31,988 nt of DNA from Desulfobacteraceae bacterium (GCA_050124735.1 JASFEQ010000005.1:1-31988), one strand, 5' to 3'; numbered from the stretch's first letter, positions 8,335 through 28,180 are shown. Translations and numbers: made by a program. The notes: generated by a model from the letters alone, not told the origin.

Positions 8335-8425
8335 TTTACCCTCAATGCACACCCCTGTGGGGCCCGGATTACTTGCTGCCTCTTATTATCATTTTGGATT
8401 GGAAGTTCCAACTCAATTTATTTTT

Positions 8426-8454: not shown

Positions 8455-8504
8455 AGTTGAAAGGGCACGCGCTCAGGTGAACTCTTTTTTGCTCGAGGTG
8501 ACGT

Positions 8505-9974: not shown

Positions 9975-11121
9975 AAGTCCTTCGATTCCCTTCTGGAGGG
10001 GTTCTATCCCGGCCCTTAAGCATCAGGACAACAATCAGCGCGATAATGAGTGCAGCCTGGAACAGACCGAGGACGGCTTCGATAAACCTTTGGTTCATTA
10101 TGATAAGGGCACTAAATCCCAGGCAGGTGGACATGGTGAGGATCATAAAGACCGTTTCCTTCCGGGCAAACCCCATAAAGAGCAGCCGATGATGCAAGTG
10201 ATCTTTGTTGACACAGGTTAATAGTTCAAGAAAGTTTTTGGCTTGGCCGTTCTTAAGCCGTGACAGGTTCACATAGATCATATCAAAGATGAGAATACCA
10301 AATATGAGGATCGGGGCTGCCAAGGAGACGAAGTGGCTGGTATTGGACCATTTTCCCAAGACGGCCAATCCAGCCAACGTAAATCCCAAGAAGGTGCTAC
10401 CCGCATCCCCTAGAAAGAGGAGGCCCGATTCTCCGAATCTGAAGTTGTAGGGGATAAACCCGGCACAGGCTCCCAAAAGGGCAACTGCAAGCCAACCCAG
10501 TGCAGCCTGATCCGTCTTGAACGCGATGAGTCCCAAGAAGAGGGCAGTCACTATACAGATGCCGGATGCCAGGCCGTCAATTCCATCAAAAAAATTCAGT
10601 GCGTTTGTCAACCCCACGATCCAAAGCACTGTTAAGGGAATATTGATAAAAGGGGCCCAAAATTCGTGATAGAAGAAGGTAAGCTGGATATCTCCCCAAA
10701 TGATCACCAAAAGAGAAATCAGGATCTGTAAGATAAACTTGAGAAGGGCAGGCAAGGGGCGGATATCATCCCAGAGGCCCATAGTAAAAATCAGGGTGGC
10801 GCCCAGTAAGAGAATTTTCATTCTGGGAAGAAATACGCCATTTAACAACAAAGAGGCGCAAAAGGCGAGGTAAACGGCCAAACCACCGAGGAGTGGTGTG
10901 GGTCTGTGGTGTATCTTTCTCCAGTCAGGCTTGTCCAAAATATTCAGCTTCAGGGCGAGTGACCGGCAAAAGGGGGTGAAGAAATAGGCCGCTAGGAAGG
11001 AAAAGATGAATATGTACTGCCACCTCAGACCAGAATCAAAGTAAAATCTCCTGACCCAAGGGCAGGATAAAAAAAGGAGGAAAAACGCGATGAGGGCATA
11101 CCAAATGATTCTAGGTCGCAA
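9943..11121 (-). CDS. WecA/MraY-family (GT4-polyprenyl-phosphate) phospho-N-acetylhexosamine-1-phosphate transferase
   Basis: It has 'NALNFFDGIDGLASG', the 'LWDDI' DD motif and 'LGDAGSTFLG'. The track ORF extends to 11253, overlapping the upstream gene by 140 nt. An in-frame TTG at 11121 immediately after that gene's stop is the more likely start. Confidence 0.7.
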   Translation of the reverse strand: MRPRIIWYALIAFFLLFLSCPWVRRFYFDSGLRWQYIFIFSFLAAYFFTPFCRSLALKLNILDKPDWRKIHHRPTPLLGGLAVYLAFCASLLLNGVFLPRMKILLLGATLIFTMGLWDDIRPLPALLKFILQILISLLVIIWGDIQLTFFYHEFWAPFINIPLTVLWIVGLTNALNFFDGIDGLASGICIVTALFLGLIAFKTDQAALGWLAVALLGACAGFIPYNFRFGESGLLFLGDAGSTFLGFTLAGLAVLGKWSNTSHFVSLAAPILIFGILIFDMIYVNLSRLKNGQAKNFLELLTCVNKDHLHHRLLFMGFARKETVFMILTMSTCLGFSALIIMNQRFIEAVLGLFQAALIIALIVVLMLKGRDRTPPEGNRRTFRRRREDRLP

Positions 11122-13808: not shown

Positions 13809-15140
13809 ATGCTAATATGCCAAACACTGGAGGATGTCAGGGAGATCGTAAAGGACAGAGATATCAGTTTTATCCAGTTCTGGTTCACTGATGTCTTGGG
13901 GGTGCTCAAGAGTTTTGCCATAACCCCATCCGAGTTAGAGGAGGGGATGACGGAAGGGATGGGCTTTGACGGATCTTCCATCGAGGGATTCGCCCGGATT
14001 CAAGAAAGCGATATGATCGCCAAACCAGACCCCACCACGTTTCAGTTGGTGCCATGGAGGGTGGGGGATCGCCCCGTGGCCCGCATGTTCTGCGATATTT
14101 TAAACCCTGACGGAACGTCATACGAGGGGGATCCTCGTTACGTGTTTAAGAGACTTCTGAATAAAGTGGCGGAGCAGGGTTACACCTCTTATATGGGGCC
14201 AGAACTGGAATATTTCTATTTCAAGGATCATAAGTACACGGAGATTATAGATGAGGGCGGCTATTTTGATTCCCGTCCCCTTGATCTGGGAAGCGACCTG
14301 AGAAGGGATACCATCTTTGCCCTTCAATCCATGGGGATCGATGTGGAGTATAGCCATCATGAGGTTGCCCCCAGCCAACATGAGATAGATCTGAGGTATG
14401 ATGAAGGTCTCAGGATGGCTGACAAGACGCAGACATACCGCGTGGTGGTCAAGGAGATAGCCCGTAAGCATGGTGTGTATGCCACGTTCATGCCCAAACC
14501 CATCTTTGGGCAGAACGGGAGCGGCATGCATACCCATCAGTCCCTTTTCAAAGGAGATCAGAATGCCTTTTATGATCCTAAAGATAAATACAATCTTTCA
14601 GACATGGCCAAACACTACATCGCCGGGTTGATACATCATGCCCCAGAGATTACCGCAGTAACCAACCAGTGGGTAAATTCTTATAAGAGGTTGGTTCCGG
14701 GTTATGAGGCCCCGGTCTACGTGTCATGGGCCAGAAGAAACAGGTCAACCATGATCAGGGTTCCCATGTACAAACCGGGCAAGGAGAAGGCCACCAGGAT
14801 TGAATTTCGTTCGCCCGATCCTGCATGCAACCCCTATCTAGCCTTTGCTGTCATGCTGGGTGCTGGTTTAAGTGGCATAGAGAAGAAGCTGGAACTGCCG
14901 GATCCCATTGAGGAGGACATCTTTGAGATGAACCCTGCTGAACGAAGGGCACATGGCATTACGGATTTACCAGGCAATCTTTATGCAGCTACACTGGAAA
15001 CAGAGAAGAGCGAATTGGTCAGAGAGGTTCTGGGGGAACATATTTTCAATAAGTTTATTGAAAACAAAAAGATTGAATGGGATTCCTACAGGACCCACGT
15101 GAGCCAATTCGAAATCGACAAGTATCTGCCTGTGTTGTGA
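13809..15140 (+). CDS. glnA: Glutamine synthetase type I-alpha (443 aa, no adenylylation loop insert)
   Basis: Has canonical GS motifs 'DGSSIEGF', 'KPIFGQNGSGMHTHQSL' and 'NRSTMIRVP'. A strong AAGGAGGG SD lies 6 nt upstream. Confidence 0.9.
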   Translation: MLICQTLEDVREIVKDRDISFIQFWFTDVLGVLKSFAITPSELEEGMTEGMGFDGSSIEGFARIQESDMIAKPDPTTFQLVPWRVGDRPVARMFCDILNPDGTSYEGDPRYVFKRLLNKVAEQGYTSYMGPELEYFYFKDHKYTEIIDEGGYFDSRPLDLGSDLRRDTIFALQSMGIDVEYSHHEVAPSQHEIDLRYDEGLRMADKTQTYRVVVKEIARKHGVYATFMPKPIFGQNGSGMHTHQSLFKGDQNAFYDPKDKYNLSDMAKHYIAGLIHHAPEITAVTNQWVNSYKRLVPGYEAPVYVSWARRNRSTMIRVPMYKPGKEKATRIEFRSPDPACNPYLAFAVMLGAGLSGIEKKLELPDPIEEDIFEMNPAERRAHGITDLPGNLYAATLETEKSELVREVLGEHIFNKFIENKKIEWDSYRTHVSQFEIDKYLPVL

Positions 15141-15210: not shown

Positions 15211-16662
15211 TTACAAAAAGGCTTTGTGTATTATTTCCCTCACCTTTTTGGCGTTGGCTTTGCCCTCGGTCTTCTTCATCACCTGCCCGATCAAAAAATC
15301 TATCGGATGGGCCATTCCCTCTTTTATTTTCTTCACGGCTTCAGGATTTTCTGACATCACCTCATTCAAGACTCTCTCCAGGCGCTCTTGATCCTGAATG
15401 GGCCTTAAGCCTCTTTTATTTATGATAGACTCAGGATCTTCTCCCGTTTCAAACATAATTTCCAAAACCGTTCTACCGATTTGGTCTGTGATATCGCCCC
15501 TTGAGATCAGATTGATAAGGATGGAAAACTCTTTTGGAGGGACAGCACATTTCTCTATGGTGATGGCGGCATCATTGAGGAGTTTAAAAAGATCCTTGAT
15601 CATCCAGCTACTCAGCCTGACCCTGTCATCACAAAAGGCGGCGCAACGCTCAAAAAAGTCCGACACGTTTCTATCCTTTGTCAAGATAAGGGCGTCTTTC
15701 TTAGAGATTCGGTAATCCTTAATGATACGATTCACCTTTTGATCAGGCAGTTCCGGCATTCCCTCTTGGATCTGTTCAACAAATCCCTGGTCAATCTCGA
15801 ATTCCACCAGATCAGGGTCTGGGAAATATCTGTAATCTGGCGCGTCTTCCTTGCTCCGCATAGATACGGTTATTTTCTTCTCCTCATGGAAAAGCCTGGT
15901 CTCCTGGGAGGGCTCTTTACCGGAGTGGAGAATTTTCAATTGCCTTTTGACCTCATATTGCAGTGCTTCCATGATGAATTTGAAAGAGGCCATATTTTTT
16001 ATTTCGGCGCGATTGCCGTAATCCAGGGCCCCCTCCGGACGAATGGATATATTCACATCACAACGAAACTGGCCCTTCTCTATAATGCAATCACTTATCC
16101 CTATATAGATTAATGTCTGCCTCAGTTTTTCAAGGTAGGCTCGAGCCTCGTTCACCGAGCGTAAAGGGTTACGTTCATGATCGGTAACGATTTCAAGGAG
16201 CGGCACACTGGATCTGTTGTAATCCACAAGACTGTAATCTGATGCCTCAAAGGAACTGGCTGAATGCACCAACTTTCCTGCGTCCTCTTCTAGATGAATT
16301 CGCTTGATTCCCACAGCATAAGGACGGCCCTCATCATTTTGAATTTCCAGGTATCCATTTTCGCAAAAAGGCCGCTCATATTGGGAGATTTGATACCCTT
16401 TGGGAAGATCGGGGTAGAAATAGTTTTTGCGAGCGAACCGAGATCGTCTATTAATCGTGCAATTCATGGCTACACCGGCACGGATGGTATGTTCAACGGC
16501 CCTTTTGTTTAGGACAGGGAGTGCCCCGGGCTGCCCAGTACAGACAGGGCAGATATGCGTGTTTGGAGGTGCTCCATTTTCCACCGCGCAGCCGCAAAAC
16601 AGCTTTGTCTTTGTCTTCAATTCCACATGGGTTTCAAACCCAATGATAATCTCGTAATCCAT
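15211..16662 (-). CDS. gatB: Asp-tRNA(Asn)/Glu-tRNA(Gln) amidotransferase subunit B
   Basis: The N-terminus 'MDYEIIIGFETHVELKTKTKLFCGC' is diagnostic. 483 aa. Confidence 0.9.
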   Translation of the reverse strand: MDYEIIIGFETHVELKTKTKLFCGCAVENGAPPNTHICPVCTGQPGALPVLNKRAVEHTIRAGVAMNCTINRRSRFARKNYFYPDLPKGYQISQYERPFCENGYLEIQNDEGRPYAVGIKRIHLEEDAGKLVHSASSFEASDYSLVDYNRSSVPLLEIVTDHERNPLRSVNEARAYLEKLRQTLIYIGISDCIIEKGQFRCDVNISIRPEGALDYGNRAEIKNMASFKFIMEALQYEVKRQLKILHSGKEPSQETRLFHEEKKITVSMRSKEDAPDYRYFPDPDLVEFEIDQGFVEQIQEGMPELPDQKVNRIIKDYRISKKDALILTKDRNVSDFFERCAAFCDDRVRLSSWMIKDLFKLLNDAAITIEKCAVPPKEFSILINLISRGDITDQIGRTVLEIMFETGEDPESIINKRGLRPIQDQERLERVLNEVMSENPEAVKKIKEGMAHPIDFLIGQVMKKTEGKANAKKVREIIHKAFL

Positions 16663-18105
16663 TTATGCGCGCCCCGCAAACTTCTCATAGGCATATCCCA
16701 CCCTGAGCACCATCTCCTCGTCAAATGGTCTTCCAATAATCTGGAGACCAACGGGCAACCCATCCACCATTCCACAGTTTACGCTCATTCCGGGCAGTCC
16801 GGAAAGGTTCAAAGACACCGTGTAAATGTCCACAAGATACATTTGCAGGGGATCGGCCATCTTTTCCCCCAGTCTAAAAGGCAGACAGGGTGAGACAGGG
16901 GTGATCATACAGTCTACTCTTTTGAAGGCCTGATCAAAATCCTTTTTGATAAGGGCCCTTGCCTCCTGAGCCTTTAAATAATAGGCGTCATAGTAACCCG
17001 CAGAAAGGACATAGGTCCCCAGCATGATCCTCCTCTTCACTTCTGTACCAAATCCCTCGCTCCTCGTCTCCTGATACATGTTCAGCAAGTCAAGGATCTC
17101 TTCACTGGATCTGAAACCATACTTGACGCCGTCATACCTGGCCAGGTTGCTGCTTGCTTCAGCCGTCGCTATGAGATAATAAGCGCTGATTGCGTAACGG
17201 GCGTGGGGTAAGGATATATCAATGATCTCGGCTCCTTTTTCCTTGAACAATTCGACAGCCCGCATAATCTGATCTTTAACATGGGGATCCAGACCTTCAA
17301 TAAAGTACTCCCCTGGAAGACCTATTTTGATACCCTCCACGCCTTGCCTCAGGGAACGCAGGAAGTCAGGCCTTTTGATATCAGCAGAAGTGGTATCCAT
17401 TTTGTCATGTCCGCAGATGACGTTCAGAAGCAACCCGCAATCTTCAACGGTGCGACCAAGGGCCCCTATTTGATCTAACGATGATGCATAGGAAATCAAA
17501 CCGTATCGGGAGACTCTGCCGTACGTGGGTTTTATCCCCGCAACACCGCAATAAGCGGCCGGCAGACGGATAGAGCCCCCGGTATCCGATCCCAAGGCAA
17601 GGACCGTTTCCCCTGAGGCGATTGCGGCCGCAGACCCACCGCTACTACCCCCTGCTACGCGTTCCAGATCCACAGGGTTGTGAGTAGGTCCGAAGGCGCT
17701 ATTTTCGCAGGAGGAGCCCATGGCGAATTCATCCATATTGGTTTTTCCGATGAGCACAGCGCCAGTTTGCAGGACCTTTGCCGCCGCGGTCGCATCATAA
17801 GGAGGGATGTAGTTTTCCAAAATCTTTGATCCACAAGTCGTTGGTATGCCTTGCGTACACATATTGTCTTTGATGGCAATGGGTATCCCGTTCAAAAGAG
17901 AAACCCTCTTATTTTCTCGAAACCTCCTGTCCGCCATGTCGGCCTGTTTCAGGGCTATTTCAGGGGTTACCATAATAAAGGCATGAATAGCGTCCTCTTT
18001 TTCATCAATCCTTTTGAGCACAGACTCCGTGATCTCGTGAGAGCTTACCTCGCCTTTCCGAAGCATTCTTGCCAATTCTGTGGCACTATGATCGCACAAC
18101 TGCAT
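16663..18105 (-). CDS. gatA: Asp-tRNA(Asn)/Glu-tRNA(Gln) amidotransferase subunit A (amidase signature)
   Basis: Has the amidase signature 'GGSSGGSAAAIASG'. 480 aa. It directly abuts gatB. Confidence 0.9.
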   Translation of the reverse strand: MQLCDHSATELARMLRKGEVSSHEITESVLKRIDEKEDAIHAFIMVTPEIALKQADMADRRFRENKRVSLLNGIPIAIKDNMCTQGIPTTCGSKILENYIPPYDATAAAKVLQTGAVLIGKTNMDEFAMGSSCENSAFGPTHNPVDLERVAGGSSGGSAAAIASGETVLALGSDTGGSIRLPAAYCGVAGIKPTYGRVSRYGLISYASSLDQIGALGRTVEDCGLLLNVICGHDKMDTTSADIKRPDFLRSLRQGVEGIKIGLPGEYFIEGLDPHVKDQIMRAVELFKEKGAEIIDISLPHARYAISAYYLIATAEASSNLARYDGVKYGFRSSEEILDLLNMYQETRSEGFGTEVKRRIMLGTYVLSAGYYDAYYLKAQEARALIKKDFDQAFKRVDCMITPVSPCLPFRLGEKMADPLQMYLVDIYTVSLNLSGLPGMSVNCGMVDGLPVGLQIIGRPFDEEMVLRVGYAYEKFAGRA

Positions 18106-18108
18106 GTT

Positions 18109-20277
18109 CTAGCCTTCCAAGATCTTTGGGACTTTAAAGTAGCTGGATTCCTCGTTCGGTGCATTTGCCATCAGGGATTCCGCTTCACTTGATTTTCTCG
18201 GTTCGTCCTCTCGCCACACGTTCTTCATTTCCAAGACGTGGCTCATGGGCTCCACATTTTCCGTATCTAACTCTTGCAGCGCCTCAAAGTGTTCCAACAC
18301 GGCATTTAACTCCTTCTGATAGGCGTCTGCCTCCGGATCGGTGATTTTCAAGCGAGCAAGCTTTGCCACATGCTTCACCTCGCCTATGGAAATTCTTTCT
18401 AACTCTGCGAGAGGACGCCCAACCGCATCTTCTTGTGCCGCCCCTCTCAATCCTATTACGGGTCTTCCCGCAATACCGGCAGAGCCCAAACCCAACTCCT
18501 TGAGCTGTGATCTGTCCACAGGAGAAGGTGCCAGGGTCAATGGACACAGGGCACTCCGATTCTTAGGAAAAGCGATCACATCTCTGATGGATGCTGTTTT
18601 CAAGATCATCGCAATGACCCTGTCTAGGCCAAGGGCAAGGCCGCCGTGCGGTGGGGCACCGTATTCCAAGGCTCTCAGAAAGAACCCGAACTTGGTCTCC
18701 ACCTCCCCAGGGCTCAACCCTAAGGCCCTGAAGATCTTATCTTGGACTTCCATCTCATGAATACGGATACTACCCCCGCCCAGTTCCTCTCCATTTATGA
18801 CCAAGTCGTAGGCCCTGGAATTCAGACCCAGCAATTCCTCCTCGTTTGTGGAATCGAAATCGGTCCGATCAGGCATGGTGAAGGGATGATGCTGGGAGCC
18901 CAACCTTCCATCCTTGCGTTCAAAGAGGGGGAAGTCGGTCACCCATATGGGGCAATAGCGATCTTCAGGGATCAGCCCAAGCCTTTCAGCCACGTGAAGG
19001 CGTAGGCTACAGAGGGCCTTGTCCATAAGTTCCACGGAGGCATCGGCAATCATCATGATGACATCACCATCCTCAGCGTTGAAGCGTTCTCTGATTGCCT
19101 CTTGCTCGGTCGGAGAGAAAAACTGGGCAATGTTTGACTCCAGATTCCCATTAATCACTTTCATCCAGGTCATCCCTTTTGCCCCAAATGAAGGGACAAT
19201 CTTTAGAGCGTATTCATTTTGGAGGACATTCTTGCTTAATCTACCCGCCATACCCTTCACGCAGAACCCCTTGATCTGGCCACCCTGCCCAATGACCTGA
19301 CGGAAAATCGTGTAGCCGGTATCTTGAACAATGTCCGTCACCTCTTCGAAGGACATGTCAAAGCGTGTATCCGGGCAATCGGTGCCATAACGACCCATCG
19401 CCTCCCTGTAAGTCATCCGTGGAAAGGGGCTGGGCACGCGGATCCCTCCCAGGGCAAACATCCGGACGGTTAGCGCTTCTATGACGTCATAAATGAATTC
19501 CTCATCGATGAAGGCGGCCTCCATGTCCAATTGTGTAAACTCCGGCTGCCTGTTGGGTCTTAGATCCTCATCACGAAAACACCTCGCTATTTGAAAGTAG
19601 CGGTCCAAGCCGCTCATCATGAGAATTTGTTTGAAGAGTTGAGGAGACTGGGGAAGCGCATAAAACTTACCCTGATGGACCCGACTGGGGACCAGATAAT
19701 CCCTGGCGCCCTCAGGCGTGCTCTTCGTCAGGAAGGGTGTTTCGATTTCGGTGAAGCCGAGCTCGTGGAAATAGTCACGAATGCATTTCATGATCTCGTG
19801 TCGTTTGATGAAGAGACCCTGAACAGAGGGACGCCGAAGATCCAGGTATCTGTATTGCAACCTGAGTTCTTCGTCCACATTTTCTGGGCTGGACTGGATC
19901 TCTTCCCCAAAAACCATGGCTTTTTCAGAGATCAGAAAAGGCAGGATTTTTGCTTTAGAGAGTATCTCAAGCTCTGTGGCGAACACTTCCACATCTCCCG
20001 TCTCCAGATTGGGATTTTCCGTTCCCTTTTGCCTACGTCCCACCTTTCCTCGCACCTCCACCACGTACTCTTCTTTTAGCGTGGTGGACCTTTCGTAGCT
20101 TTCCTTGTTCACATGGGGATCGAAAACGACCTGCACGATCCCCCGGATGTCCCGCAGATGAATGAACAGCAAGTTCCCATGGTCTCGAATGGCGTCCACC
20201 CAACCCATGAGCAGTACATCTCTTTCCATATCAGAGGTCCTCAAGGACCCACAGTAAACCCTATCTCTCCACTTCAT
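18109..20277 (-). CDS. aspS: Aspartyl-tRNA synthetase with in-frame C-terminal GatC domain (AspS-GatC fusion)
   Basis: 722 aa. Residues 1 to about 595 are AspRS ('GWVDAIRDHGNLLFIHLRD', class II motifs, 'AFPKN'). A Gly/Ala/Arg linker follows. The last roughly 95 aa, 'RISIGEVKHVAKLARLKITDPE...VEPMSHVLEMKNVWREDE...NAPNEESSYFKVPKILEG', are unmistakably GatC (about 18112-18400). Confidence 0.85.
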   Translation of the reverse strand: MKWRDRVYCGSLRTSDMERDVLLMGWVDAIRDHGNLLFIHLRDIRGIVQVVFDPHVNKESYERSTTLKEEYVVEVRGKVGRRQKGTENPNLETGDVEVFATELEILSKAKILPFLISEKAMVFGEEIQSSPENVDEELRLQYRYLDLRRPSVQGLFIKRHEIMKCIRDYFHELGFTEIETPFLTKSTPEGARDYLVPSRVHQGKFYALPQSPQLFKQILMMSGLDRYFQIARCFRDEDLRPNRQPEFTQLDMEAAFIDEEFIYDVIEALTVRMFALGGIRVPSPFPRMTYREAMGRYGTDCPDTRFDMSFEEVTDIVQDTGYTIFRQVIGQGGQIKGFCVKGMAGRLSKNVLQNEYALKIVPSFGAKGMTWMKVINGNLESNIAQFFSPTEQEAIRERFNAEDGDVIMMIADASVELMDKALCSLRLHVAERLGLIPEDRYCPIWVTDFPLFERKDGRLGSQHHPFTMPDRTDFDSTNEEELLGLNSRAYDLVINGEELGGGSIRIHEMEVQDKIFRALGLSPGEVETKFGFFLRALEYGAPPHGGLALGLDRVIAMILKTASIRDVIAFPKNRSALCPLTLAPSPVDRSQLKELGLGSAGIAGRPVIGLRGAAQEDAVGRPLAELERISIGEVKHVAKLARLKITDPEADAYQKELNAVLEHFEALQELDTENVEPMSHVLEMKNVWREDEPRKSSEAESLMANAPNEESSYFKVPKILEG

Positions 20278-20907: not shown

Positions 20908-21246
20908 ATGAAGTACGTTATAGCCATGATTCAGCCCCATATACTGAATGATGTGAAACAGGCACTGTTTGATAATGAGATTTACAGCATGACGGTCAGT
21001 AATGCATTGGGGTGCGGCAATCAGATGGGTTACACGGAAACCTACAGAGGCGTGATGCAGGAAGTGAACCTTCTGAAAAAGGTGAGACTTGAGATTGCAG
21101 TGAATGACGATTTTGTGGAACCCACCATTGAAGCGATCATCAAGGGATCAAGGTCAGGAAATATGGGAGACGGAAAGATCTTCGTGCTGGATCTCCCTCA
21201 ATGTATCAGGATAAGAACCCTCGAAAGAGGGACGAAGGCCATATAA
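20908..21246 (+). CDS. PII nitrogen regulatory protein (GlnB/GlnK family), T-loop lacks Tyr51
   Basis: 112 aa. '[18 protein letters not shown]' and '[20 protein letters not shown]' match the PII B-loop and C-terminus. The T-loop reads '[17 protein letters not shown]', so the uridylylation-site Tyr is replaced. Confidence 0.85.
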
Positions 21247-21370: not shown

Positions 21371-22636
21371 ATGTTAGGTGTATGGATTGGAATTGCTGTC
21401 ATAGCGGTACTGATTATTTTGGCTTTTATTAAAGCGAACCTGAGGATTTGTCATCCAAATGAAATCCTCGTCTTTTCAGGTAGGAAGAGGAAACTAAAAG
21501 ATGGAACAGTTGTGGGATACAGGGTGATCAAAGGAGGTCGTGGTCTCAAAATTCCCATCATTGAATCGGTAACCCGGTTGCCTCTGACAACCATCCCCAT
21601 CGACCTGGAGCTTTCAGGAGCACTTACCAGCGGAATCATTCCTATAAACCTTCAAGCAATGGCCAATGTGAAGATAGCGGGCAGCGAGGAGGAAGGCCTA
21701 TCCAATGCACTGGAGAGGTTCTTGGGAAGGAACATTACTGACATTTCGCAGATCGCCAGGGAAAACCTGGAGGGTAGTTTACGAGGAGTGCTCGCCACTT
21801 TAACCCCAGAGGAAGCGAATAACAATAGGCTCGAGTTTTCGGAGAAAGTGGCACAACAGGCAAGAAGTGATCTTAGGAATCTCGGCCTGGTCCTTGATAC
21901 CTTCAAGATCAAACATATCTCTGACAACGAAGGGTACTTGGAGGCGATCGGAAGGAAAAAGAACGCCGAGGTCAGAAGGGATGCCAAAATTGTTGAAGCC
22001 AACGCGGAAGCTGAGGCGATGCTGGTGGCTGCGGAAGCGAAGAAAAAGGGAAGAGTGGCAGAGCATGAGGCAGATGTCAGCATCGTGGAGGCAGAAAACA
22101 AGCTTCGCGTGAGACGGGCGGATTTGGCTGCAGAAGCTCACAGGTTTGAAGCCAGAGCCAATGTGGCCGGTGAGATCGCGCGGATAGAAGAGGAACAGAA
22201 ACTGGAAGAGCAACGGGTTGAGATGAACAAACACAAATATGAAGCAGATGTGGTTGTCCCTGCTCGAGCGGAAAAAGACGCCATGGAATTAAGGGCCATG
22301 GGTAAAGCAGCCAATATCATTGAAGACGGCAAGGCCATGGCAGAGGCCGTGAGATCCATGCGACAAGAGTGGGAGAAGGAAGATACGAGAGATCTCTTCC
22401 TGATCCAACAGCTACCCGACATCTTAGATAAGATAACTCGTGTGGTCGCTGAGAATCTATCTATTGATAAGGTGACCATAGTGGATAGCGGCAACGGCAG
22501 CGGTGTGCCGGCGTATGTCCACGGCGTGACGGGTTCTATCGTCTCCATATTCGAGCAGATAAAAAATGCCACAGGCCTGGACATTCCCGAAATCCTTCAA
22601 GCCAGAGGCAAGGGCACCGGGGAGTTCACAGGCTAA
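21371..22636 (+). CDS. Flotillin-like SPFH/band-7 membrane protein
   Basis: 421 aa. It has an N-terminal TM helix, an SPFH core, and a long Ala/Glu-rich coiled-coil ('EANAEAEAMLVAAEAKKKGRVAEHEADVSIVEAENKLRVRRADLAAEA'). Confidence 0.8.
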   Translation: MLGVWIGIAVIAVLIILAFIKANLRICHPNEILVFSGRKRKLKDGTVVGYRVIKGGRGLKIPIIESVTRLPLTTIPIDLELSGALTSGIIPINLQAMANVKIAGSEEEGLSNALERFLGRNITDISQIARENLEGSLRGVLATLTPEEANNNRLEFSEKVAQQARSDLRNLGLVLDTFKIKHISDNEGYLEAIGRKKNAEVRRDAKIVEANAEAEAMLVAAEAKKKGRVAEHEADVSIVEAENKLRVRRADLAAEAHRFEARANVAGEIARIEEEQKLEEQRVEMNKHKYEADVVVPARAEKDAMELRAMGKAANIIEDGKAMAEAVRSMRQEWEKEDTRDLFLIQQLPDILDKITRVVAENLSIDKVTIVDSGNGSGVPAYVHGVTGSIVSIFEQIKNATGLDIPEILQARGKGTGEFTG

Positions 22637-22833: not shown

Positions 22834-24162
22834 ATGTCAATCAGAACCAAAAGAGATGTGATGAAGATTGTCAAAGAAAGAAATGTAAGTTTTATCCAGA
22901 TCTGGTTTACAGATATCTTGGGAATATTAAAAGGTTTTGCCATTGCACCTTCGGAACTGGAAAGTGCATTGACAGAGGGGATGGGTTTCGATGGCTCCTC
23001 TATCGAGGGGTTCGCCCGGATCGAGGAGAGCGACATGATTGCAATGCCCGATCCTTCAACCTTCGGATTCCTTCCTTGGCGGCCAAAGGAGCGGCCCGTG
23101 GCCCGCATGTTCTGCGATATCCTGCAGCCAGATGGGTCCCATTATGAGGGGGACCCACGGTATGTTCTAAAGCGTGTGTTACAGAGGGCCGCTGACAAGG
23201 GTTATAAACTCTATTTGGGCCCTGAACTGGAGTTCTTCTACTTTGCAAACAATGAGAAACCGGAGACAATCGATAAGGGTGGGTATTTTGATACCAGACC
23301 TCTAGACCTTGCAAGCGACCTGAGGAGAGACACCATTTTCACGCTTCAGGAAATGGGCATACAGGTGGAATACAGCCACCATGAAGTGGCCCCCAGTCAG
23401 CACGAGATTGATTTGCGTTATGATGAGGGGCTGAAGATGGCGGACAATACCATGACCTACCGGGTGGCAGTCAAAGAGATCGCCCGCAAACATGGATATT
23501 ATGCGACTTTCATGCCCAAGCCCATCTTTGGAGAAAACGGCAGTGGCATGCACACACATCAATCCCTTTTCAGAGGCGATATCAACGCCTTTTATGAGCC
23601 CAGTGATCAGTACCATCTCTCCGATATCGCGAAATCATACATCGCAGGTATCTTGAACCACGCCCGAGAGATAACAGCAATCACTAACCAGTGGGTCAAC
23701 TCATACAAGCGACTGGTCCCCGGTTACGAAGCACCGGTCTATATCTCTTGGGCGCGGCGCAATCGCTCAGCAATGGTAAGAGTCCCCATGTACAAACCGG
23801 GCAAAGAGCAGGCGACCCGTATTGAATATCGCTCGCCCGATCCGGCCTGCAATCCTTACCTCGCATTTGCTGTGATGTTGGCTGCGGGACTGAAAGGGAT
23901 AGATGACAACTACTCGCTTCCTGACCCGGTAGAAGAGGATATCTACGAGATGGATGAGGCAGCAAGGGAAAGGGCTGGCATTATCTCTTTGCCTGGAAGC
24001 CTCTTTGAAGCGGTTCAGGAGCTTGAGAAGAGTGAATTGGTTCGAGAGACACTTGGAGACCACATCTTCAACAAGTTCATCGCAAACAAGAAGATCGAAT
24101 GGGACCGATACCGCATACATATCAGCGGGTATGAAATTGAGAACTATTTCCCAATTCTCTAA
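22834..24162 (+). CDS. glnA: Glutamine synthetase type I-alpha, second paralog (442 aa, about 75% identical to the first)
   Basis: Has the same GS motifs ('KPIFGENGSGMHTHQSL', 'NRSAMVRVP'). A GAGGAGGAG SD lies upstream. Confidence 0.9.
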   Translation: MSIRTKRDVMKIVKERNVSFIQIWFTDILGILKGFAIAPSELESALTEGMGFDGSSIEGFARIEESDMIAMPDPSTFGFLPWRPKERPVARMFCDILQPDGSHYEGDPRYVLKRVLQRAADKGYKLYLGPELEFFYFANNEKPETIDKGGYFDTRPLDLASDLRRDTIFTLQEMGIQVEYSHHEVAPSQHEIDLRYDEGLKMADNTMTYRVAVKEIARKHGYYATFMPKPIFGENGSGMHTHQSLFRGDINAFYEPSDQYHLSDIAKSYIAGILNHAREITAITNQWVNSYKRLVPGYEAPVYISWARRNRSAMVRVPMYKPGKEQATRIEYRSPDPACNPYLAFAVMLAAGLKGIDDNYSLPDPVEEDIYEMDEAARERAGIISLPGSLFEAVQELEKSELVRETLGDHIFNKFIANKKIEWDRYRIHISGYEIENYFPIL

Positions 24163-24352: not shown

Positions 24353-24412
24353 CAGGGGAATTTTGGAACAGATTGACCATGGATGATGTGAGTTCGAATT
24401 GTGGAGTTGGAT

Positions 24413-25141
24413 ATGGCAAAAAGATTTCTCACTTTTCAACATATGCCCTGGGAAGGACCAGGTATCCATCTCCTGCGATCTGCCAAAAGGTGGGGAGTCC
24501 AGCTGGAGGTGATTGAGGTATGGCGTCAGCCCATTCCCGATCTTGCCCCTTATGACGCTTTGATTGTCCTAGGCGGCGAGCCCAATGTGAATCAGGAAGC
24601 GAAGTACCCTTTCTTGAGCGCTGAAAAAGCGGCTATCCGACAATCCATTGCTGAAGACAGACCTTACCTTGGTTTTTGCCTGGGTCACCAATTGCTTGCT
24701 GATGCCTTGGGGGCCAATGTGGGGGATAATTTCTGCCGCAGTGTGGGATTCATTGAAGGGCAGGTTACAAAAGAAGGGAGCCAACACCCCCTATTGCGGC
24801 GTCTTCCACAAACCTTTCCCCTGTTCAAGTGGCATACTCAGACCATCTTACCGCCCGTGCCCAAACACATTGAGGTTTTGGTTACATCGTCGGAATGTCT
24901 GGTGGAGGCAATTTCGGTAACCAAAAGAGCGCATATCGTTGGCTTGCAGTTTGATAATCACGCGGCTACCCGTGTGAATGTGACCAAATGGCTGAAAGAG
25001 GATAGCAAGTGGGTCTCGCATTCGCCGAGTTTCAACCCTTCCAAGGTGTTAACAGACGCAACGCTGCTGGAAAGGCCAGCGGGAGAGCAATTTGAGGTAC
25101 TTTTCGGCAACTTTATGAGGTTGGTCTTAGGCCCAGATTGA
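24413..25141 (+). CDS. Class I glutamine amidotransferase-like protein (stand-alone GATase1)
   Basis: Has 'YLGFCLGHQLL' (nucleophile Cys elbow) and 'VGLQFDNH' (His region). The track ORF starts at GTG 24401. ATG 24413 with GGAG 6 nt upstream is preferred. Confidence 0.7.
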   Translation: MAKRFLTFQHMPWEGPGIHLLRSAKRWGVQLEVIEVWRQPIPDLAPYDALIVLGGEPNVNQEAKYPFLSAEKAAIRQSIAEDRPYLGFCLGHQLLADALGANVGDNFCRSVGFIEGQVTKEGSQHPLLRRLPQTFPLFKWHTQTILPPVPKHIEVLVTSSECLVEAISVTKRAHIVGLQFDNHAATRVNVTKWLKEDSKWVSHSPSFNPSKVLTDATLLERPAGEQFEVLFGNFMRLVLGPD

Positions 25142-25209: not shown

Positions 25210-26592
25210 ATGGCAAAGAAAATTTTGATCACGACTTTTATCGCCTTACTGGTGTTTGGATGCATGGTGCATGTTGCAATGGCTGAAAACCCAACTGAGG
25301 CCCCCACGTCTGCTCAGGAAGTATGGTCTGACAAAAGTGTGGCAATCGATACGGGCTGGACCCTTTTTGCAGCCGTCCTGGTCATGTTCATGCAGGCTGG
25401 TTTTGCCATGCTTACAGCGGGGTTCTCACGCTCCAAAAATGCCGGGAACATGTTAATGAAAAACCTCATGGATTTCTGTTTTGGAAGTATCGCTTTTTGG
25501 GCCATAGGGTTTGGTTTGATGTTTGGGGCAGGTAATTTTCTGTTTGGTACGAGCGGCTTTTTCCTCACTGACTCTGGTGGAACATTTTCTGCTTTGAGCT
25601 GGAGCAAGGTCCCCTTGGAATGCAAGTATTTTTTCCAGCTGGTTTTTTGTGCGACTGCCGCCACCATTGTGGCCGGGGCCATGGCAGAGAGGACGAAGTT
25701 TGTGGCCTACATCTTCTACAGCATCGCAATCACCGCGATCATCTATCCCATTGTGGGACATTGGATTTGGGGGGGTGGCTGGTTAGCCGAGTTGGGCATG
25801 TGGGATTTTGCGGGATCCACTGTGGTCCATTCCACAGGAGGCTGGCTTGCACTAAGCGGTGCCATCATGCTGGGGCCAAGGACGGGCAAGTACGCTGCTG
25901 ACGGCTCTTCAAATGCTATCCCTGGTCACAATATTCCCTTGGCCGCATTAGGGACGTTTATTCTCTGGTTCGGATGGTTTGGGTTTAATCCTGGAAGCAC
26001 CATGGCACTCGTCCCCGAAATCGCACATATTGCTGCCGCGACCAATATTGCTGGTGCGGCAGGGGGAATAGCGGCCATGATCGCAGCCTGGTGGATGTTT
26101 AAGAAGCCCGATGTGAGTATGGCCCTCAATGGCGTCCTCGGCGGTCTGGTCAGTATTACAGCCTCCTGTGCTTTCGTATCTTTAGGCAGTGCCATATGGA
26201 TCGGCATTGTGGGAGGCGTCTTGGTCGTACTAGCCGTATACTATATTGATCAGTTTCTGCATGTGGACGATCCGGTGGGAGCGATCGCTGTTCATGGGGT
26301 CTGCGGGTCTTGGGGGACACTGGCCCTGGGTCTGTTTGCCCAAGACAAATTCTCTCCAGGAACAACGGGCAACGGCCTCTTTTTTGGGGGAGGGGTGAAG
26401 CTGCTTGGCGCTCAGGCCCTTGGGGTTATCTCCGTGTTTGCTTGGAGTATGGCAATCGGATTCCTCCTGTTTTATGTGATCAAGAACCTGGTGGGTTTGC
26501 GTGTGAGCAGAGACGAAGAACTGCGCGGGCTTGACATTGATGAACACGGTATGGAGGCTTATCCCGGATTTTCCATCTTTACCACCCAGTAA
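25210..26592 (+). CDS. amtB: Ammonium transporter (Amt family) with signal peptide
   Basis: 460 aa. It has Amt signatures 'DFAGSTVVHSTGGW' and 'GAIAVHGVCGSWGTLALGLF', with 11 TM segments after a cleavable leader. An AGGAGG SD lies upstream. Confidence 0.9.
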   Translation: MAKKILITTFIALLVFGCMVHVAMAENPTEAPTSAQEVWSDKSVAIDTGWTLFAAVLVMFMQAGFAMLTAGFSRSKNAGNMLMKNLMDFCFGSIAFWAIGFGLMFGAGNFLFGTSGFFLTDSGGTFSALSWSKVPLECKYFFQLVFCATAATIVAGAMAERTKFVAYIFYSIAITAIIYPIVGHWIWGGGWLAELGMWDFAGSTVVHSTGGWLALSGAIMLGPRTGKYAADGSSNAIPGHNIPLAALGTFILWFGWFGFNPGSTMALVPEIAHIAAATNIAGAAGGIAAMIAAWWMFKKPDVSMALNGVLGGLVSITASCAFVSLGSAIWIGIVGGVLVVLAVYYIDQFLHVDDPVGAIAVHGVCGSWGTLALGLFAQDKFSPGTTGNGLFFGGGVKLLGAQALGVISVFAWSMAIGFLLFYVIKNLVGLRVSRDEELRGLDIDEHGMEAYPGFSIFTTQ

Positions 26593-26883: not shown

Positions 26884-27306
26884 ATGACAGCTTCAAAGGG
26901 CCCTATTTTGGCCCTGTTCTACTGCCAGAATACGCCTGGTAGCACCGAAAAGGAGAGACAGGCCCTGGAGGAGAAGTATGGGGCGTCCCTGCGCCTCTTC
27001 CCCATTCCCTGCAGCGGGCGGTTGGATCCTCTTCACCTCTTGAGAGCGCTTGAGGAATTTGCCGACAATGCCTATCTCATCAGCTGTCCCGAGGGGGCTT
27101 GCCGATATTTTGAGGGAAATCGGCGGGCAAAAAAGCGTGTGGAAAGAACGCAACAGATTATCGAGGGGATTGGTCTGGAGAAAGAGCGGGTTGGGCTCAT
27201 TGTCAGGTCAAAAGAGGATTGCAGGCCCCTTGCAAAGCTGGCAGAGGAGATAGTGGATTTGACCTCCAAACTGGGCCCCTCGCCCGTGCACAAGAAGGCT
27301 GCATAG
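26884..27306 (+). CDS. mvhD: MvhD/FlpD-like iron-sulfur protein (methyl-viologen-reducing hydrogenase delta-subunit domain)
   Basis: 140 aa. 'ILALFYCQNTPG', 'FPIPCSGRLDP' and 'AYLISCPEGACRYFEGNRRAKKR' match the FlpD/MvhD Cys pattern. Confidence 0.7.
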   Translation: MTASKGPILALFYCQNTPGSTEKERQALEEKYGASLRLFPIPCSGRLDPLHLLRALEEFADNAYLISCPEGACRYFEGNRRAKKRVERTQQIIEGIGLEKERVGLIVRSKEDCRPLAKLAEEIVDLTSKLGPSPVHKKAA

Positions 27307-27336
27307 CAAAGGAAGAACTGACGTCCTGACAACCAT

Positions 27337-27455
27337 GTCATTGCGAGGAGTCCCGCGGGGGCGGGACGACGGAGCAATCTCAAAGAGGACGAGATTGCCA
27401 CGCCTTTTCCCGAAGGGACTCTCGTCCCATCAGGACGCAGCGGGCTCGCAATGAC
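27337..27455. repeat. Intergenic palindromic repeat element, copy 2 (perfect 11-bp TIR GTCATTGCGAG / CTCGCAATGAC)
   Basis: It has the same block order as copy 1 and an internal GCAATCTC-AAAGAGGAC-GAGATTGC hairpin. Confidence 0.5.
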
Positions 27456-27506
27456 CTTTAGAAGGAGCCTAACGAGTCTGTAGGAATCAAGAAGGAGAGA
27501 GAAGTT

Positions 27507-28175: not shown

Positions 28176-28180
28176 AAGAT

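What the first reader, a model, noticed from the sequence alone, without database searches (positions are those of the whole stretch)
18109..20277. GatC fused in-frame to the C-terminus of aspartyl-tRNA synthetase, heading an aspS(gatC)-gatA-gatB operon
**Seen in sequence**
- The 722-aa ORF is a full-length class II AspRS.
- It continues through a roughly 30-aa Gly/Ala/Arg linker into about 95 aa that align almost residue-for-residue with GatC (EVKHVAKLARL...VEPxxHVLEMKNVWREDE...NAP...VPKILE).
- gatA and gatB follow immediately.
- No separate gatC exists in the window.

**Inference**
- This physically hard-wires the transamidosome (non-discriminating AspRS plus GatCAB).
- It implies Asn-tRNA(Asn), and probably Gln-tRNA(Gln), are made by the indirect route.
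- A covalent AspRS-GatC tether would be a natural experiment on transamidosome architecture.
- It sits next to a glutamine synthetase gene, the amide donor.
Basis: partly seen in the sequence, partly recalled or inferred. Interest (0 to 1): 0.7.

Follow-up and report, generated by a model that had tools for sequence, protein, structure and literature searches.

The report
Natural AspRS–GatC fusion heading gatAB operon
One gene really does encode aspartyl-tRNA synthetase joined by a floppy linker to the small GatC subunit of the tRNA amidotransferase, which probably ties the two enzymes that make Asn-tRNA into one particle; the fusion is conserved in hundreds of sulfate-reducer-type genomes and a sister family is already catalogued, so it is real but not new.

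Summary
Window 18109-20277(-) is one uninterrupted 722-aa ORF. It holds a complete bacterial-type AspRS (residues 1-597, with OB, class II core and GAD domains), a 31-aa linker, and a full-length GatC (629-721; TIGR00135 104 bits, cutoff 47). Canonical gatA and gatB follow, 3 nt and 0 nt apart.

It is not an artefact. All 74 related genome loci with an intact 5' end keep one open frame of 703-724 aa, apart from one N-masked read-through artefact. The linker is hypervariable, at 11% identity and 16-33 aa long. No internal start codon is conserved.

The AspRS carries the His33/Gly85 pair seen in non-discriminating enzymes from P. aeruginosa and M. tuberculosis.

Most likely function: an (AspRS-GatC)2·GatA2·GatB2 particle, a covalently tethered, tRNA-independent Asn-transamidosome. 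This is inferred, not shown.

It is not novel in kind. NCBIfam NF009460 (PRK12820) already describes a "bifunctional AspRS/GatC". The window protein aligns end to end but scores below that cutoff (992 against 1379). It is a sister subfamily that pipelines name only "aspartate--tRNA ligase". I found no paper on the fusion.

Whether Gln-tRNA is made indirectly, and whether asnS, glnS or a second gatC exist in the genome, cannot be tested from this window.

The parts
18109..20277 (-). aspS-gatC fusion gene: a 722-aa ORF, with its TAG stop at 18109-18111
   Evidence: The exact protein is NCBI MGD9318460.1, named 'aspartate--tRNA ligase'.
18487..20277 (-). AspRS module, residues 1-597: a complete bacterial-type class IIb aspartyl-tRNA synthetase
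   Evidence: NF001750 scores 756 bits against a cutoff of 443. [quoted passage not shown]
19960..20217 (-). OB-fold anticodon-binding domain, residues 21-106. It contains His33 (20179-20181) and Gly85 (20023-20025), the pair seen in non-discriminating AspRS.
   Evidence: PF01336, E 7e-17. The RDHG and KGTENPN motifs align with P. aeruginosa 4WJ3_M (RDHGG, PEGARNPN) and M. tuberculosis 5W25. E. coli and T. thermophilus discriminating enzymes have Leu at the first position, and E. coli has Lys at the second, where T. thermophilus has a gap. His33 is kept in 75 of 75 fusion proteins and Gly85 in 60 of 75.
18556..19875 (-). Class II catalytic core, residues 135-574, with the GAD insertion domain at residues 325-421 (19015-19305)
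   Evidence: PF00152 matches 1-308 of 308, E 6e-116. PF02938 matches 1-94 of 95, E 1e-18.
18394..18486 (-). Inter-domain linker, residues 598-628 (31 aa, rich in Gly, Ala and Arg)
   Evidence: This is the least conserved segment. Identity to the window is 0.11 for residues 601-620, against 0.5-0.9 elsewhere. Length is 16-33 aa, median 31, in 63 type-1 relatives. It is always open and in frame. AF2 pLDDT is below 50 there, but the model is poor overall.
18112..18393 (-). GatC module, residues 629-722, with a free C-terminus
   Evidence: TIGR00135 matches 1-93 of 93 at 104 bits, cutoff 47.1. PF02686, E 2e-22. It aligns to the GatC chains of 3H0L, 2DF4, 4WJ3 and 3KFU.
16663..18105 (-). gatA, the glutaminase subunit, 480 aa. 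Its ATG lies 3 nt after the fusion's stop codon, preceded by a GGAAGG Shine-Dalgarno-like sequence.
   Evidence: TIGR00132 scores 631.9 bits against 481.1. The catalytic residues Lys79, Ser154 and Ser178 are present. Sequence.
15211..16662 (-). gatB, the kinase/transamidase subunit, 483 aa. It starts directly after the gatA stop.
   Evidence: GatB_N and GatB_Yqey domains. NF004012 scores 631.7 bits against 338.
13809..15140 (+). Context: glnA1, type I glutamine synthetase, convergent with gatB across a 70-nt gap
   Evidence: TIGR00653 scores 548.5 bits against 429. Orthologues at more than 70% identity lie beside the operon in 10 related loci.
20908..21246 (+). Context: P-II nitrogen regulator, divergent from aspS-gatC across a 630-nt intergenic region. 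Further nitrogen-assimilation genes follow: glnA2 22834-24162, ammonium transporter 25210-26592, and a glutamate-synthase-like gene 29334-30731.

Best explanation
The gene encodes a genuine covalent fusion. A complete bacterial-type AspRS with a GAD domain, probably non-discriminating, is joined through a disordered linker of about 31 residues to a full-length GatC.

GatC is the small subunit that wraps the GatA-GatB interface (established knowledge of GatCAB structures). Its N-terminus is tethered here and its C-terminus is left free. The fusion should therefore still assemble with the translationally coupled GatA and GatB.

AspRS is a homodimer, so the product would be an (AspRS-GatC)2·GatA2·GatB2 particle. 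That is an Asn-transamidosome whose synthetase and amidotransferase are held together permanently and at 1:1, whether or not tRNA is bound.

In such a particle, Asp-tRNA(Asn) made by the AspRS module would be handed to the tethered GatB active site. There it would be amidated with ammonia released from glutamine by GatA, before it can reach EF-Tu.

**Shown:** the domain architecture, the conservation of the open frame, the synteny, the hypervariable linker, the lack of a conserved internal start, and the His33/Gly85 residues.

**Inferred:** assembly with GatAB, aspartylation of tRNA(Asn), and channeling.
For: **The architecture is real**
- Domain matches are full length and above the curated cutoffs for aspS, gatC, gatA and gatB.
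- The 120 best protein clusters (68-100% identity, about 720 aa) all carry the four Pfam domains.
- 256 genome stretches encode relatives, from Desulfatiglandales, Desulfobacterales, strain NaphS2, Syntrophales, Syntrophorhabdus, Omnitrophota and Nitrospirota.
- 74 of 74 loci with an intact 5' end keep an open frame of 703-724 aa, apart from one N-masked artefact.

**The linker behaves as a tether**
- It is the only unconserved segment, at identity 0.11.
- It varies from 16 to 33 aa in multiples of a codon and is polar and small-residue rich.

**The product is the fused protein**
- The ancestral GatC Met is replaced by Lys or Arg in most members.
- The nearby conserved Val is a GTG codon in only 10 of 63 Val codons, so no internal start is conserved.

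**Operon structure**
- gatA follows in 60 of 62 type-1 loci and gatB in 51 of 52, mostly with spacers of 1-8 nt.

**Non-discriminating-type residues**
- His33 is invariant and Gly85 is present in 60 of 75.
- Both match the PDB chains labelled Asp/Asn ligase and differ from E. coli and Thermus discriminating AspRS.

**Stoichiometry**
- Chain counts for 4WJ3 fit one GatCAB per AspRS monomer in the bacterial-type complex. There are 4 GatC chains, and 5 AspRS chains across 4WJ3 and 4WJ4.
- The fusion would impose the same ratio.

**Why a tether would matter**
- M. tuberculosis ND-AspRS and GatCAB do not associate without tRNA(Asn).
- H. pylori needs the adaptor Hp0100 for a tRNA-independent complex (PMC8406222).
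- Bacterial-type transamidosomes are dynamic (PMC3367201).

**Repeated origin**
- An independent fusion with the same gene order exists in the cultured clostridial isolate Acetoanaerobium noterae.
- Its AspRS part groups with unfused enzymes.
- It is the only GatC detectable on that 2.63-Mb replicon.
Against: - There are no biochemical data for any member. I found no paper on the fusion in the searchable library.
- I could not test whether a linker of up to about 31 residues (14 in the type-2 subfamily) can span from the AspRS C-terminus to the GatC N-terminus in the 4WJ3 geometry.
- The AF2 model was too poor to use: mean pLDDT 65, with parts of the catalytic core below 50.
- The His/Gly signature for relaxed tRNA specificity rests on my recollection of mutagenesis in P. 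aeruginosa AspRS (Bernard et al. 2006) and on the comparison. It is not a validated predictor.
- A close relative has a truly separate gatC, so the tether is dispensable in this lineage. In L083/L084, GatC is 66% identical and GatA 77%.
- One metagenome contig (L081) has a TAA exactly at the junction.
- If the organism lacks GlnRS, an obligatorily AspRS-bound amidotransferase would also have to serve Glu-tRNA(Gln). That may be awkward and is untested.
Confidence: 0.75

Rival explanations
1. Assembly or sequencing artefact: a missed stop or frameshift between separate aspS and gatC genes.
For: Broken versions exist in public data. L085 is a long-read contig with indels, and L082 has an N-gap inside the linker. 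L081 has a single G-to-T change that gives TAA at the junction. Errors and variants at this locus therefore occur.
Against: - 74 of 74 independent loci are open across a linker that shares only about 11% identity.
- 30 members at >=90% identity come from separate NCBI, JGI and ENA assemblies, most at exactly 722 aa.
- The fusion also appears in isolate genomes: strain NaphS2, Syntrophorhabdus UI and Acetoanaerobium noterae.
- A random 31-codon stretch stays stop-free only about 23% of the time, so repeated openness across diverged linkers implies selection.
Confidence: 0.01
2. The gene is fused, but the working proteins are separate. Internal translation initiation near the GatC start, or proteolysis in the linker, would release free GatC, so that GatCAB acts as a normal free enzyme.
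For: - In the window the Val634 codon is GTG, preceded by the purine-rich AGGCGAG.
- A NaphS2-like subclade retains ATG at the ancestral GatC start.
- The L081 variant with TAA at the junction would need such re-initiation to make GatC.
- In the M. smegmatis GatC-GatA fusion mutant, a minor unfused band was seen (PMC7541841).
Against: - The start-capable codon is not conserved. GTG occurs in 10 of 63 Val codons, and the residue at GatC position 1 is mostly Lys or Arg.
- The linker is hypervariable, with no conserved cleavage motif.
- Persistent selection for an open frame across the linker has no explanation if the fusion had no function.
Confidence: 0.1
3. The fused AspRS is an ordinary discriminating enzyme, and GatCAB here serves mainly or only Gln-tRNA(Gln) formation. 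On this view the fusion reflects co-regulation or gene-order accident rather than channeling of Asp-tRNA(Asn).
For: - Many deltaproteobacteria encode AsnRS and asparagine synthetase together with GatCAB (PMC4206432).
- A relative with unfused gatCAB has AsnA-like and AsnB genes next to it.
- Specificity cannot be read reliably from sequence.
Against: - His33 is invariant and Gly85 predominant, as in the Asp/Asn ligases of P. aeruginosa and M. tuberculosis and unlike E. coli and Thermus discriminating AspRS.
- UniProt's name for the Syntrophorhabdus member is Aspartate--tRNA(Asp/Asn) ligase.
- A fusion arose at least twice, with AspRS specifically and not with GluRS or any other partner.
Confidence: 0.1
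4. The C-terminal GatC-like domain has been co-opted for another role, such as AspRS regulation or tRNA binding. The real GatC would then be encoded elsewhere in the genome.
For: In the type-2 subfamily the C-terminal domain has diverged so far that no GatC model matches it at E<=1e-5. There it is paired with a catalytically dead GatA-like protein. The module can therefore drift in function.
Against: - In the window's subfamily the domain matches the GatC equivalog end to end, well above cutoff.
- It is followed within 3 nt by canonical gatA and gatB.
- No other gatC lies in the window.
- None is detectable in the 2.63-Mb A. noterae replicon that carries an analogous fusion.
Confidence: 0.04

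Closest known systems
NCBIfam NF009460 / CDD PRK12820, 'bifunctional aspartyl-tRNA synthetase/aspartyl/glutamyl-tRNA amidotransferase subunit C'
   Same: It has the same architecture and aligns end to end: window residues 1-721 against model positions 18-723 of 723, 991.8 bits. In a neighbour-joining tree the AspRS parts of both groups form one clade, apart from 45 unfused AspRS representatives.
   Different: - The window protein scores below the curated cutoff of 1379, and so does Syntrophorhabdus at 1249.8.
- The members closest to the model that I examined (type 2, L070-L080) have a fixed 14-aa linker.
- Their C-terminal domain has diverged so far that, in the one member scanned (L079), no GatC model matches at E<=1e-5. 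They also have a GatA-like partner that lacks the catalytic triad.
- The window's type 1 has a canonical GatC, GatA and GatB and a linker of about 31 aa.
Pseudomonas aeruginosa Asn-transamidosome (PDB 4WJ3; Suzuki et al. 2015, cited in PMC8762117)
   Same: It has the same components: a bacterial-type AspRS with a GAD domain and the His/Gly anticodon-domain residues, plus GatCAB. The window AspRS matches 4WJ3_M at E 3e-150, and its GatC matches 4WJ3_C. The apparent ratio is one GatCAB per AspRS monomer.
   Different: There the enzymes are separate polypeptides bridged by tRNA(Asn). Here GatC is covalently attached to the AspRS C-terminus, so association would not depend on tRNA.
Engineered GatC-linker-GluRS fusion used to crystallise the Thermotoga maritima Gln-transamidosome (PDB 3AL0 chain C)
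   Same: It is a single polypeptide that joins GatC to the misacylating synthetase through a linker. The window's GatC region matches that chain at E 1e-8.
   Different: It is artificial, the partner is GluRS rather than AspRS, and the order is reversed: the GatC C-terminus is joined to the synthetase N-terminus. The natural fusion tethers the GatC N-terminus and leaves its C-terminus free.
Mycobacterium smegmatis GatC-GatA fusion mutants (PMC7541841)
   Same: GatC is covalently fused to a pathway partner by loss of a stop codon, and the cells remain viable.
   Different: That is a laboratory-selected mutation that blocks the GatC C-terminus. It is predicted to disturb the GatB hairpin and raises mistranslation. 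The natural AspRS-GatC fusion leaves the C-terminus free and is conserved by selection.
Helicobacter pylori Hp0100-dependent, tRNA-independent Asn-transamidosome (Silva et al. 2013, as cited in PMC8406222)
   Same: It is a device that holds ND-AspRS and GatCAB together without tRNA. The expected functional outcome is the same.
   Different: It uses a separate adaptor protein rather than a covalent tether, and there is no sequence relationship.
Deinococcus GlnRS-YqeY fusion (NCBIfam NF011291; PMC1865053)
   Same: It is another natural fusion of an aminoacyl-tRNA synthetase with a module of the tRNA-dependent amidotransferase, namely the GatB tail.
   Different: The synthetase and the module both differ. 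That fusion improves tRNA binding in the direct pathway and does not recruit the amidotransferase.

Membership tests
Bacterial-type aspartyl-tRNA synthetase (class IIb) | N-terminal OB-fold anticodon-binding domain | tested here: met
   PF01336 over residues 21-106, E 7e-17
Bacterial-type aspartyl-tRNA synthetase (class IIb) | Complete class II catalytic core, with a score above the aspS equivalog cutoff | tested here: met
   PF00152 matches 1-308 of 308. NF001750 scores 756 against 443, and TIGR00459 scores 693 against 374.
Bacterial-type aspartyl-tRNA synthetase (class IIb) | GAD insertion domain, which separates the bacterial from the archaeal type (PMC4206432) | tested here: met
   PF02938 over residues 325-421, model positions 1-94 of 95
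Non-discriminating AspRS | Anticodon-domain residues of relaxed-specificity enzymes: His at the P. aeruginosa H31 position and Gly at the G83 position. The role of these residues is recalled from Bernard et al. 2006, which I did not re-read. | tested here: met
   His33 and Gly85 align with 4WJ3_M and 5W25. E. coli has Leu and Lys, and Thermus discriminating AspRS has Leu. His is kept in 75 of 75 and Gly in 60 of 75 family members.
Non-discriminating AspRS | Aspartylates tRNA(Asn) about as well as tRNA(Asp) | not testable with these tools
   This needs an enzyme assay or complementation of E. coli trpA34.
Non-discriminating AspRS | Genome lacks AsnRS, or lacks AsnA and AsnB | not testable with these tools
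   Only 32 kb is available. None of these genes lies in the window.
GatC (TIGR00135 / PF02686) | Full-length match above the curated cutoff | tested here: met
   TIGR00135 matches 1-93 of 93 at 104 bits in the fusion and 109.7 bits for the isolated domain, cutoff 47.1. PF02686 scores 79 against 23.
GatC (TIGR00135 / PF02686) | Encoded with gatA and gatB | tested here: met
   gatA starts 3 nt downstream and gatB follows directly. This order holds in 60 of 62 and 51 of 52 relatives.
GatC (TIGR00135 / PF02686) | Binds and stabilises the GatA-GatB heterodimer | not testable with these tools
   This needs co-purification or a structure of the complex.
NF009460 bifunctional AspRS/GatC (equivalog) | End-to-end alignment to the model | tested here: met
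   Residues 1-721 against model positions 18-723 of 723
NF009460 bifunctional AspRS/GatC (equivalog) | Score at or above the curated cutoff of 1379 bits | tested here: not met
   The score is 991.8 bits. The protein is therefore a related subfamily, not a member of the equivalog as curated. Public records name it only 'aspartate--tRNA ligase'.
Asn-transamidosome | ND-AspRS and GatCAB both present | tested here: met
Asn-transamidosome | tRNA(Asn) with the U1-A72 pair recognised by GatCAB | not testable with these tools
   The window contains no tRNA gene.
Asn-transamidosome | Physical complex that channels Asp-tRNA(Asn) | not testable with these tools
   This is inferred from the covalent link only.

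The most novel reading that the evidence does not exclude
In this lineage the fused GatC would be the only GatC. Every GatCAB molecule would then be permanently bolted, 1:1, to an AspRS dimer.

That would be a constitutive, tRNA-independent transamidosome of about 375 kDa. It would be a third assembly solution, beside tRNA scaffolding and the Hp0100 adaptor.

If GlnRS is absent, the same particle must also amidate Glu-tRNA(Gln).

The clade would then also be the starting point of a derived form (type 2) in which the tethered amidotransferase has lost its glutaminase.
Probability: 0.3. Interest if true: 0.55.

Novelty: new member of a known kind. Interest (0 to 1): 0.33.

Why it matters
Misacylated Asp-tRNA(Asn) is toxic if it escapes to the ribosome. 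Known bacteria prevent this with transient, tRNA-dependent complexes or with an adaptor protein.

A conserved natural fusion offers a ready-made system for three questions:
- Does permanent tethering improve channeling and fidelity?
- How does the amidotransferase reach the tRNA acceptor end while anchored?
- How does one anchored enzyme serve both Asn and Gln routes?

There is also a practical annotation point. This subfamily falls below the curated model's cutoff and is named only 'aspartate--tRNA ligase'. Genomes carrying it will therefore look as if they lack gatC, which can mislead pathway reconstructions. The finding itself is an ordinary member of an already catalogued architecture.

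Tried and rejected
**Structure prediction**
- I ran AlphaFold2 on the fusion with a 56-sequence alignment. Mean pLDDT was 65.
- The linker and the GatC tail were below 50, but so were the core segments 109-152 and 176-249.
- Low confidence is therefore not specific to the linker. I did not run fold searches or draw geometric conclusions.

**Literature**
- Eight full-text searches and several targeted reads found no description of a natural AspRS-GatC fusion.
- Four papers are not held: the P. aeruginosa transamidosome (PMC4299244), GatCAB evolution (PMC2366055), the H. pylori anticodon-domain mutants (PMC2654173), and the PNAS DOI of the first.
- Prior mention in closed-access literature therefore cannot be excluded.

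**A wrong guess**
- I guessed that PRK12820 came from Geobacter. Geobacter has a separate gatCAB operon (PMC2700814).

**Short 'stand-alone GatC' hits**
- The GatC-only search returned short hits, and I inspected four.
- L082 is broken by an N-gap, L085 by long-read indels, and L081 by a TAA variant.
- Only L083/L084 is a true separate gatC.

**RNA and promoter scans**
- Rfam and tRNA scans of the window found nothing.
- Promoter and terminator matches around the operon were no more frequent than in shuffled sequence.

**Genome-wide checks**
- I could not search for asnS, glnS, asnB or a second gatC or aspS across the genome.
Full report
**1. The observation**

The ORF listing gives a single 722-aa ORF at 18109..20277 on the minus strand. 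A 480-aa ORF (16663..18105) and a 483-aa ORF (15211..16662) follow on the same strand.

Pfam finds four domains in the 722-aa protein:
- OB-fold anticodon-binding domain, residues 21-106.
- Class II core, 135-574, covering the whole model.
- GAD domain, 325-421.
- GatC, 645-716.

NCBIfam adds that the aspS equivalog is passed (756 bits, cutoff 443). The gatC equivalog TIGR00135 is matched from its first to its last position over residues 629-721 (104 bits, cutoff 47.1).

The AspRS part runs to the natural C-terminus of solved AspRS chains: query 6-597 against Thermus 1EFW 4-575 of 580. The last ~93 residues align full length to GatC chains of solved GatCAB structures.

Between the two lies GSAGIAGRPVIGLRGAAQEDAVGRPLAELER, 31 residues. 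The DNA shows no stop or frame change across it. The TAG stop of the fusion is followed 3 nt later by the gatA ATG, which is preceded by GGAAGG.

The downstream proteins pass the gatA and gatB equivalog cutoffs. GatA keeps its Lys79/Ser154/Ser178 triad. tblastn of the AspRS and GatC modules against the window finds no second copy even at E<=10.

**2. Artefact or real gene?**

Searching 5.8 billion proteins, the 120 best clusters (68-100% identity) all carry the same four Pfam domains. Nearly all are about 720 aa long, with a range of 699-753.

A scan of one genome per species found 256 stretches that encode relatives. The best 80 were fetched. They come mostly from Desulfatiglandales and Desulfobacterales MAGs. 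They also include strain NaphS2, Syntrophorhabdus aromaticivorans UI, Syntrophales, Omnitrophota and Nitrospirota bins.

I re-derived the reading frame from DNA in each locus. All 74 loci with an intact 5' end have one uninterrupted frame of 703-724 aa. The single 1029-aa case (L069) is read-through of a masked N run.

The window's own 90% cluster has 30 members from separate NCBI, JGI and ENA assemblies, most of them exactly 722 aa. An assembly artefact is excluded.

**3. Anatomy and what it implies**

*Linker.* Identity to the window is 0.5-0.9 in 20-residue bins along the AspRS and 0.4-0.56 along GatC. It drops to 0.11 for residues 601-620. Linker length varies from 16 to 33 residues (median 31) in 63 'type-1' relatives. 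Its composition is dominated by E, G, A, K, S, R, T and P. This is the signature of a flexible tether kept open by selection, not of a folded domain.

*No separate GatC product.* The residue aligned with the first Met of free GatC is Lys or Arg in most members (AAG, AGG or AGA, one change from ATG). Only a NaphS2-like subclade keeps ATG. The conserved Val five residues on is a GTG codon in just 10 of 63 Val codons. No internal start is conserved, so the fused polypeptide is the intended product.

*Free C-terminus.* The tether is at the GatC N-terminus. This contrasts with the laboratory GatC-GatA fusion of M. smegmatis. There the blocked C-terminus is predicted to disturb the GatB hairpin, and mistranslation rises (PMC7541841).

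*tRNA specificity.* The anticodon-binding domain reads RDH33G and KG85TENPN. P. aeruginosa (4WJ3_M) and M. tuberculosis (5W25), both deposited as Asp/Asn ligases, have His and Gly at these positions. E. coli has Leu and Lys, and the Thermus discriminating AspRS has Leu. His33 is invariant in 75 of 75 fusion proteins, and Gly85 is present in 60 of 75. That these two residues control tRNA(Asn) acceptance is my recollection of P. aeruginosa mutagenesis (Bernard et al. 2006). I could not re-read that paper.

*Synteny.* gatA follows the fusion in 60 of 62 type-1 loci and gatB in 51 of 52, usually with spacers of 1-8 nt.

**4. Mechanism**

AspRS is a homodimer, and GatC binds one GatA-GatB pair (established knowledge). 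The fusion should therefore give (AspRS-GatC)2·GatA2·GatB2.

Chain counts in the PDB table fit one GatCAB per AspRS monomer in the bacterial-type P. aeruginosa complex. They fit one GatCAB per AspRS dimer in the archaeal-type Thermus complex. The fusion thus fixes the stoichiometry already used by bacterial-type enzymes.

In characterised bacteria the two enzymes do not bind each other directly:
- M. tuberculosis ND-AspRS and GatCAB associate only with tRNA(Asn).
- H. pylori forms a tRNA-independent complex only with the adaptor Hp0100 (PMC8406222).
- The H. pylori particle is dynamic, possibly because of the GAD domain (PMC3367201).

A covalent tether is a third way to keep the amidotransferase beside the synthetase, so that Asp-tRNA(Asn) is converted before it is released. 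Assembly, tRNA(Asn) charging and channeling are all inferred.

**5. Evolution and distribution**

In a library clustered at 50% identity, the whole Desulfobacterota-type fusion family collapses to one full-length representative (P0167, 710 aa, 58% identity) plus a fragment. Every other top hit is an unfused AspRS of about 590 aa at 50% identity or less.

A neighbour-joining tree of the AspRS part places all these fusions in one clade, apart from 45 unfused representatives. The tree has no bootstrap, so it is a rough guide.

Acetoanaerobium noterae is a cultured clostridial isolate. Its 700-aa AspRS-GatC, also followed by gatA and gatB, groups with unfused enzymes. The fusion therefore arose at least twice. 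On that 2.63-Mb replicon the fused copy is the only GatC that tblastn detects at E<=1. The same search finds GatC of Listeria, Staphylococcus and Bacillus at 35-42% identity.

The tether is not indispensable. One close relative (L083/L084) has a free 112-aa gatC with a linker-like N-terminal extension. Its GatC is 66% identical and its GatA 77% identical to the window's proteins. One metagenome contig (L081) has TAA in place of the window's GAA626, exactly at the junction.

**6. Comparison with what is known**

The best NCBIfam hit is NF009460 (PRK12820), 'bifunctional aspartyl-tRNA synthetase/aspartyl/glutamyl-tRNA amidotransferase subunit C'. It aligns end to end but scores 991.8 bits, below the cutoff of 1379.

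The architecture is therefore already catalogued. The window protein belongs to a sister subfamily that the model does not capture. Sources name it 'aspartate--tRNA ligase', 'aspartyl-tRNA synthetase' or, once, 'aspartyl-tRNA amidotransferase'.

Geobacter, which I first suspected as the source of the model, has a separate gatCAB (PMC2700814).

PDB 3AL0 chain C is an engineered GatC-linker-GluRS protein made to crystallise the Thermotoga Gln-transamidosome. It is an artificial precedent in the opposite orientation.

I found no paper that describes the natural fusion. Several key closed-access papers could not be read.

**7. What the window cannot tell**

The window contains no tRNA gene and no Rfam match. 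It contains no asnS, glnS, asnA or asnB.
- Whether Gln-tRNA(Gln) is also made indirectly.
- Whether another AspRS or GatC exists in the genome.
- Whether tRNA(Asn) has the U1-A72 pair.

The neighbourhood is a nitrogen-assimilation cluster: two type I glutamine synthetases, P-II, an ammonium transporter, a class I glutamine amidotransferase and a glutamate-synthase-like gene. A glnA1 orthologue sits beside the operon in 10 related loci. This fits a glutamine-consuming enzyme but proves nothing further.

**8. Verdict**

The finding is real, correctly described and mechanistically sensible. It is a conserved, widely distributed and already catalogued architecture that has not been studied biochemically. 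I rate it a new member of a known kind, with interest about 0.33.

The most unexpected thing I met lies outside the window: the type-2 loci in which the tethered amidotransferase has a GatA-like subunit without any catalytic residue.

Noticed in passing
L070-L080 (for example L079: fusion 6001-8115, GatA-like 8131-9354, GatB 9351-10778): This is a second subfamily of the fusion, found in Syntrophales, Syntrophorhabdus aromaticivorans UI, Omnitrophota and Nitrospirota bins. It has a fixed 14-aa linker and a very divergent GatC-like tail, which in L079 (the one member scanned) matches no GatC model at E<=1e-5. In all 11 loci it is followed by a GatA-like protein of about 400 aa that has lost the whole amidase triad: Lys79 is Gln, the GGSSGGS loop with Ser154 is deleted, and Ser178 is Glu. 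The substitutions are conserved (QPN, TDxMGE), so this is a pseudo-enzyme rather than a pseudogene. In L079, the one checked, the adjacent GatB passes the GatB equivalog cutoffs. This may be a glutaminase-less amidotransferase, perhaps using free ammonia, tethered to AspRS.
   Followed up: partly
L081 1-402 (JGI metagenome 3300041075, contig Ga0452204_109335): A close relative (GatC 87% identical by tblastn, GatA 87%) has TAA where the window has GAA (Glu626), exactly at the linker-GatC junction. AGGGGTGAG and GTG follow it. This is either a natural split variant that re-initiates GatC or a sequencing error. It is seen on one contig only.
   Followed up: partly
L083 1044-8339 and L084: A relative has an unfused gatC-gatA-gatB. 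Its 112-aa GatC has an N-terminal extension, MKSKRKDYRGPSLKESQ, that resembles a linker remnant, which suggests gene fission. The operon is flanked by a glnA1 orthologue (84% identical). It is also flanked by a 410-aa protein related to asparagine synthetase A (NF005054, 140 bits, below cutoff) and by an AsnB-type asparagine synthase.
   Followed up: partly
L086 4968-10062 (NZ_CP154629.1, Acetoanaerobium noterae DSL2): A cultured clostridial isolate has an independently derived 700-aa AspRS-GatC fusion followed by gatA and gatB. The record is a 2.63-Mb replicon labelled as a plasmid in PLSDB, with only 4 annotated features.
   Followed up: partly
window 13809-15140 and 22834-24162, with 20908-21246, 24401-25141, 25210-26592 and 29334-30731: Two paralogous type I glutamine synthetases of 443 and 442 aa lie about 9 kb apart and bracket the operon. 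With them are P-II, a class I glutamine amidotransferase, an ammonium transporter and a glutamate-synthase-like gene. An SPFH/flotillin gene (21371-22636) sits between P-II and glnA2.
   Followed up: no
L015 2549-3145; L016 and L037 downstream of the fusion: In L015 gatB appears directly after the fusion with no gatA between them. In L037 no gatA or gatB was found in the ~6 kb downstream. In L016 the locus ends within 100 nt of the fusion, so it says nothing about gene order. These are exceptions to the otherwise constant gene order.
   Followed up: no
P0334 (WP_242839696.1) against P0331 (WP_038002239.1), Syntrophorhabdus aromaticivorans: A 586-aa 'aspartate--tRNA ligase' is 95% identical to the first 583 residues of the 705-aa fusion. 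It ends before the AspRS C-terminus and the GatC-like tail. It could be a truncated annotation or an unfused variant in another assembly.
   Followed up: no
window 26884-29098: An MvhD-like gene is followed by a two-part methylenetetrahydrofolate reductase (a DUF5981 C-terminal protein plus MTHFR). This arrangement is typical of Wood-Ljungdahl-pathway anaerobes.
   Followed up: no
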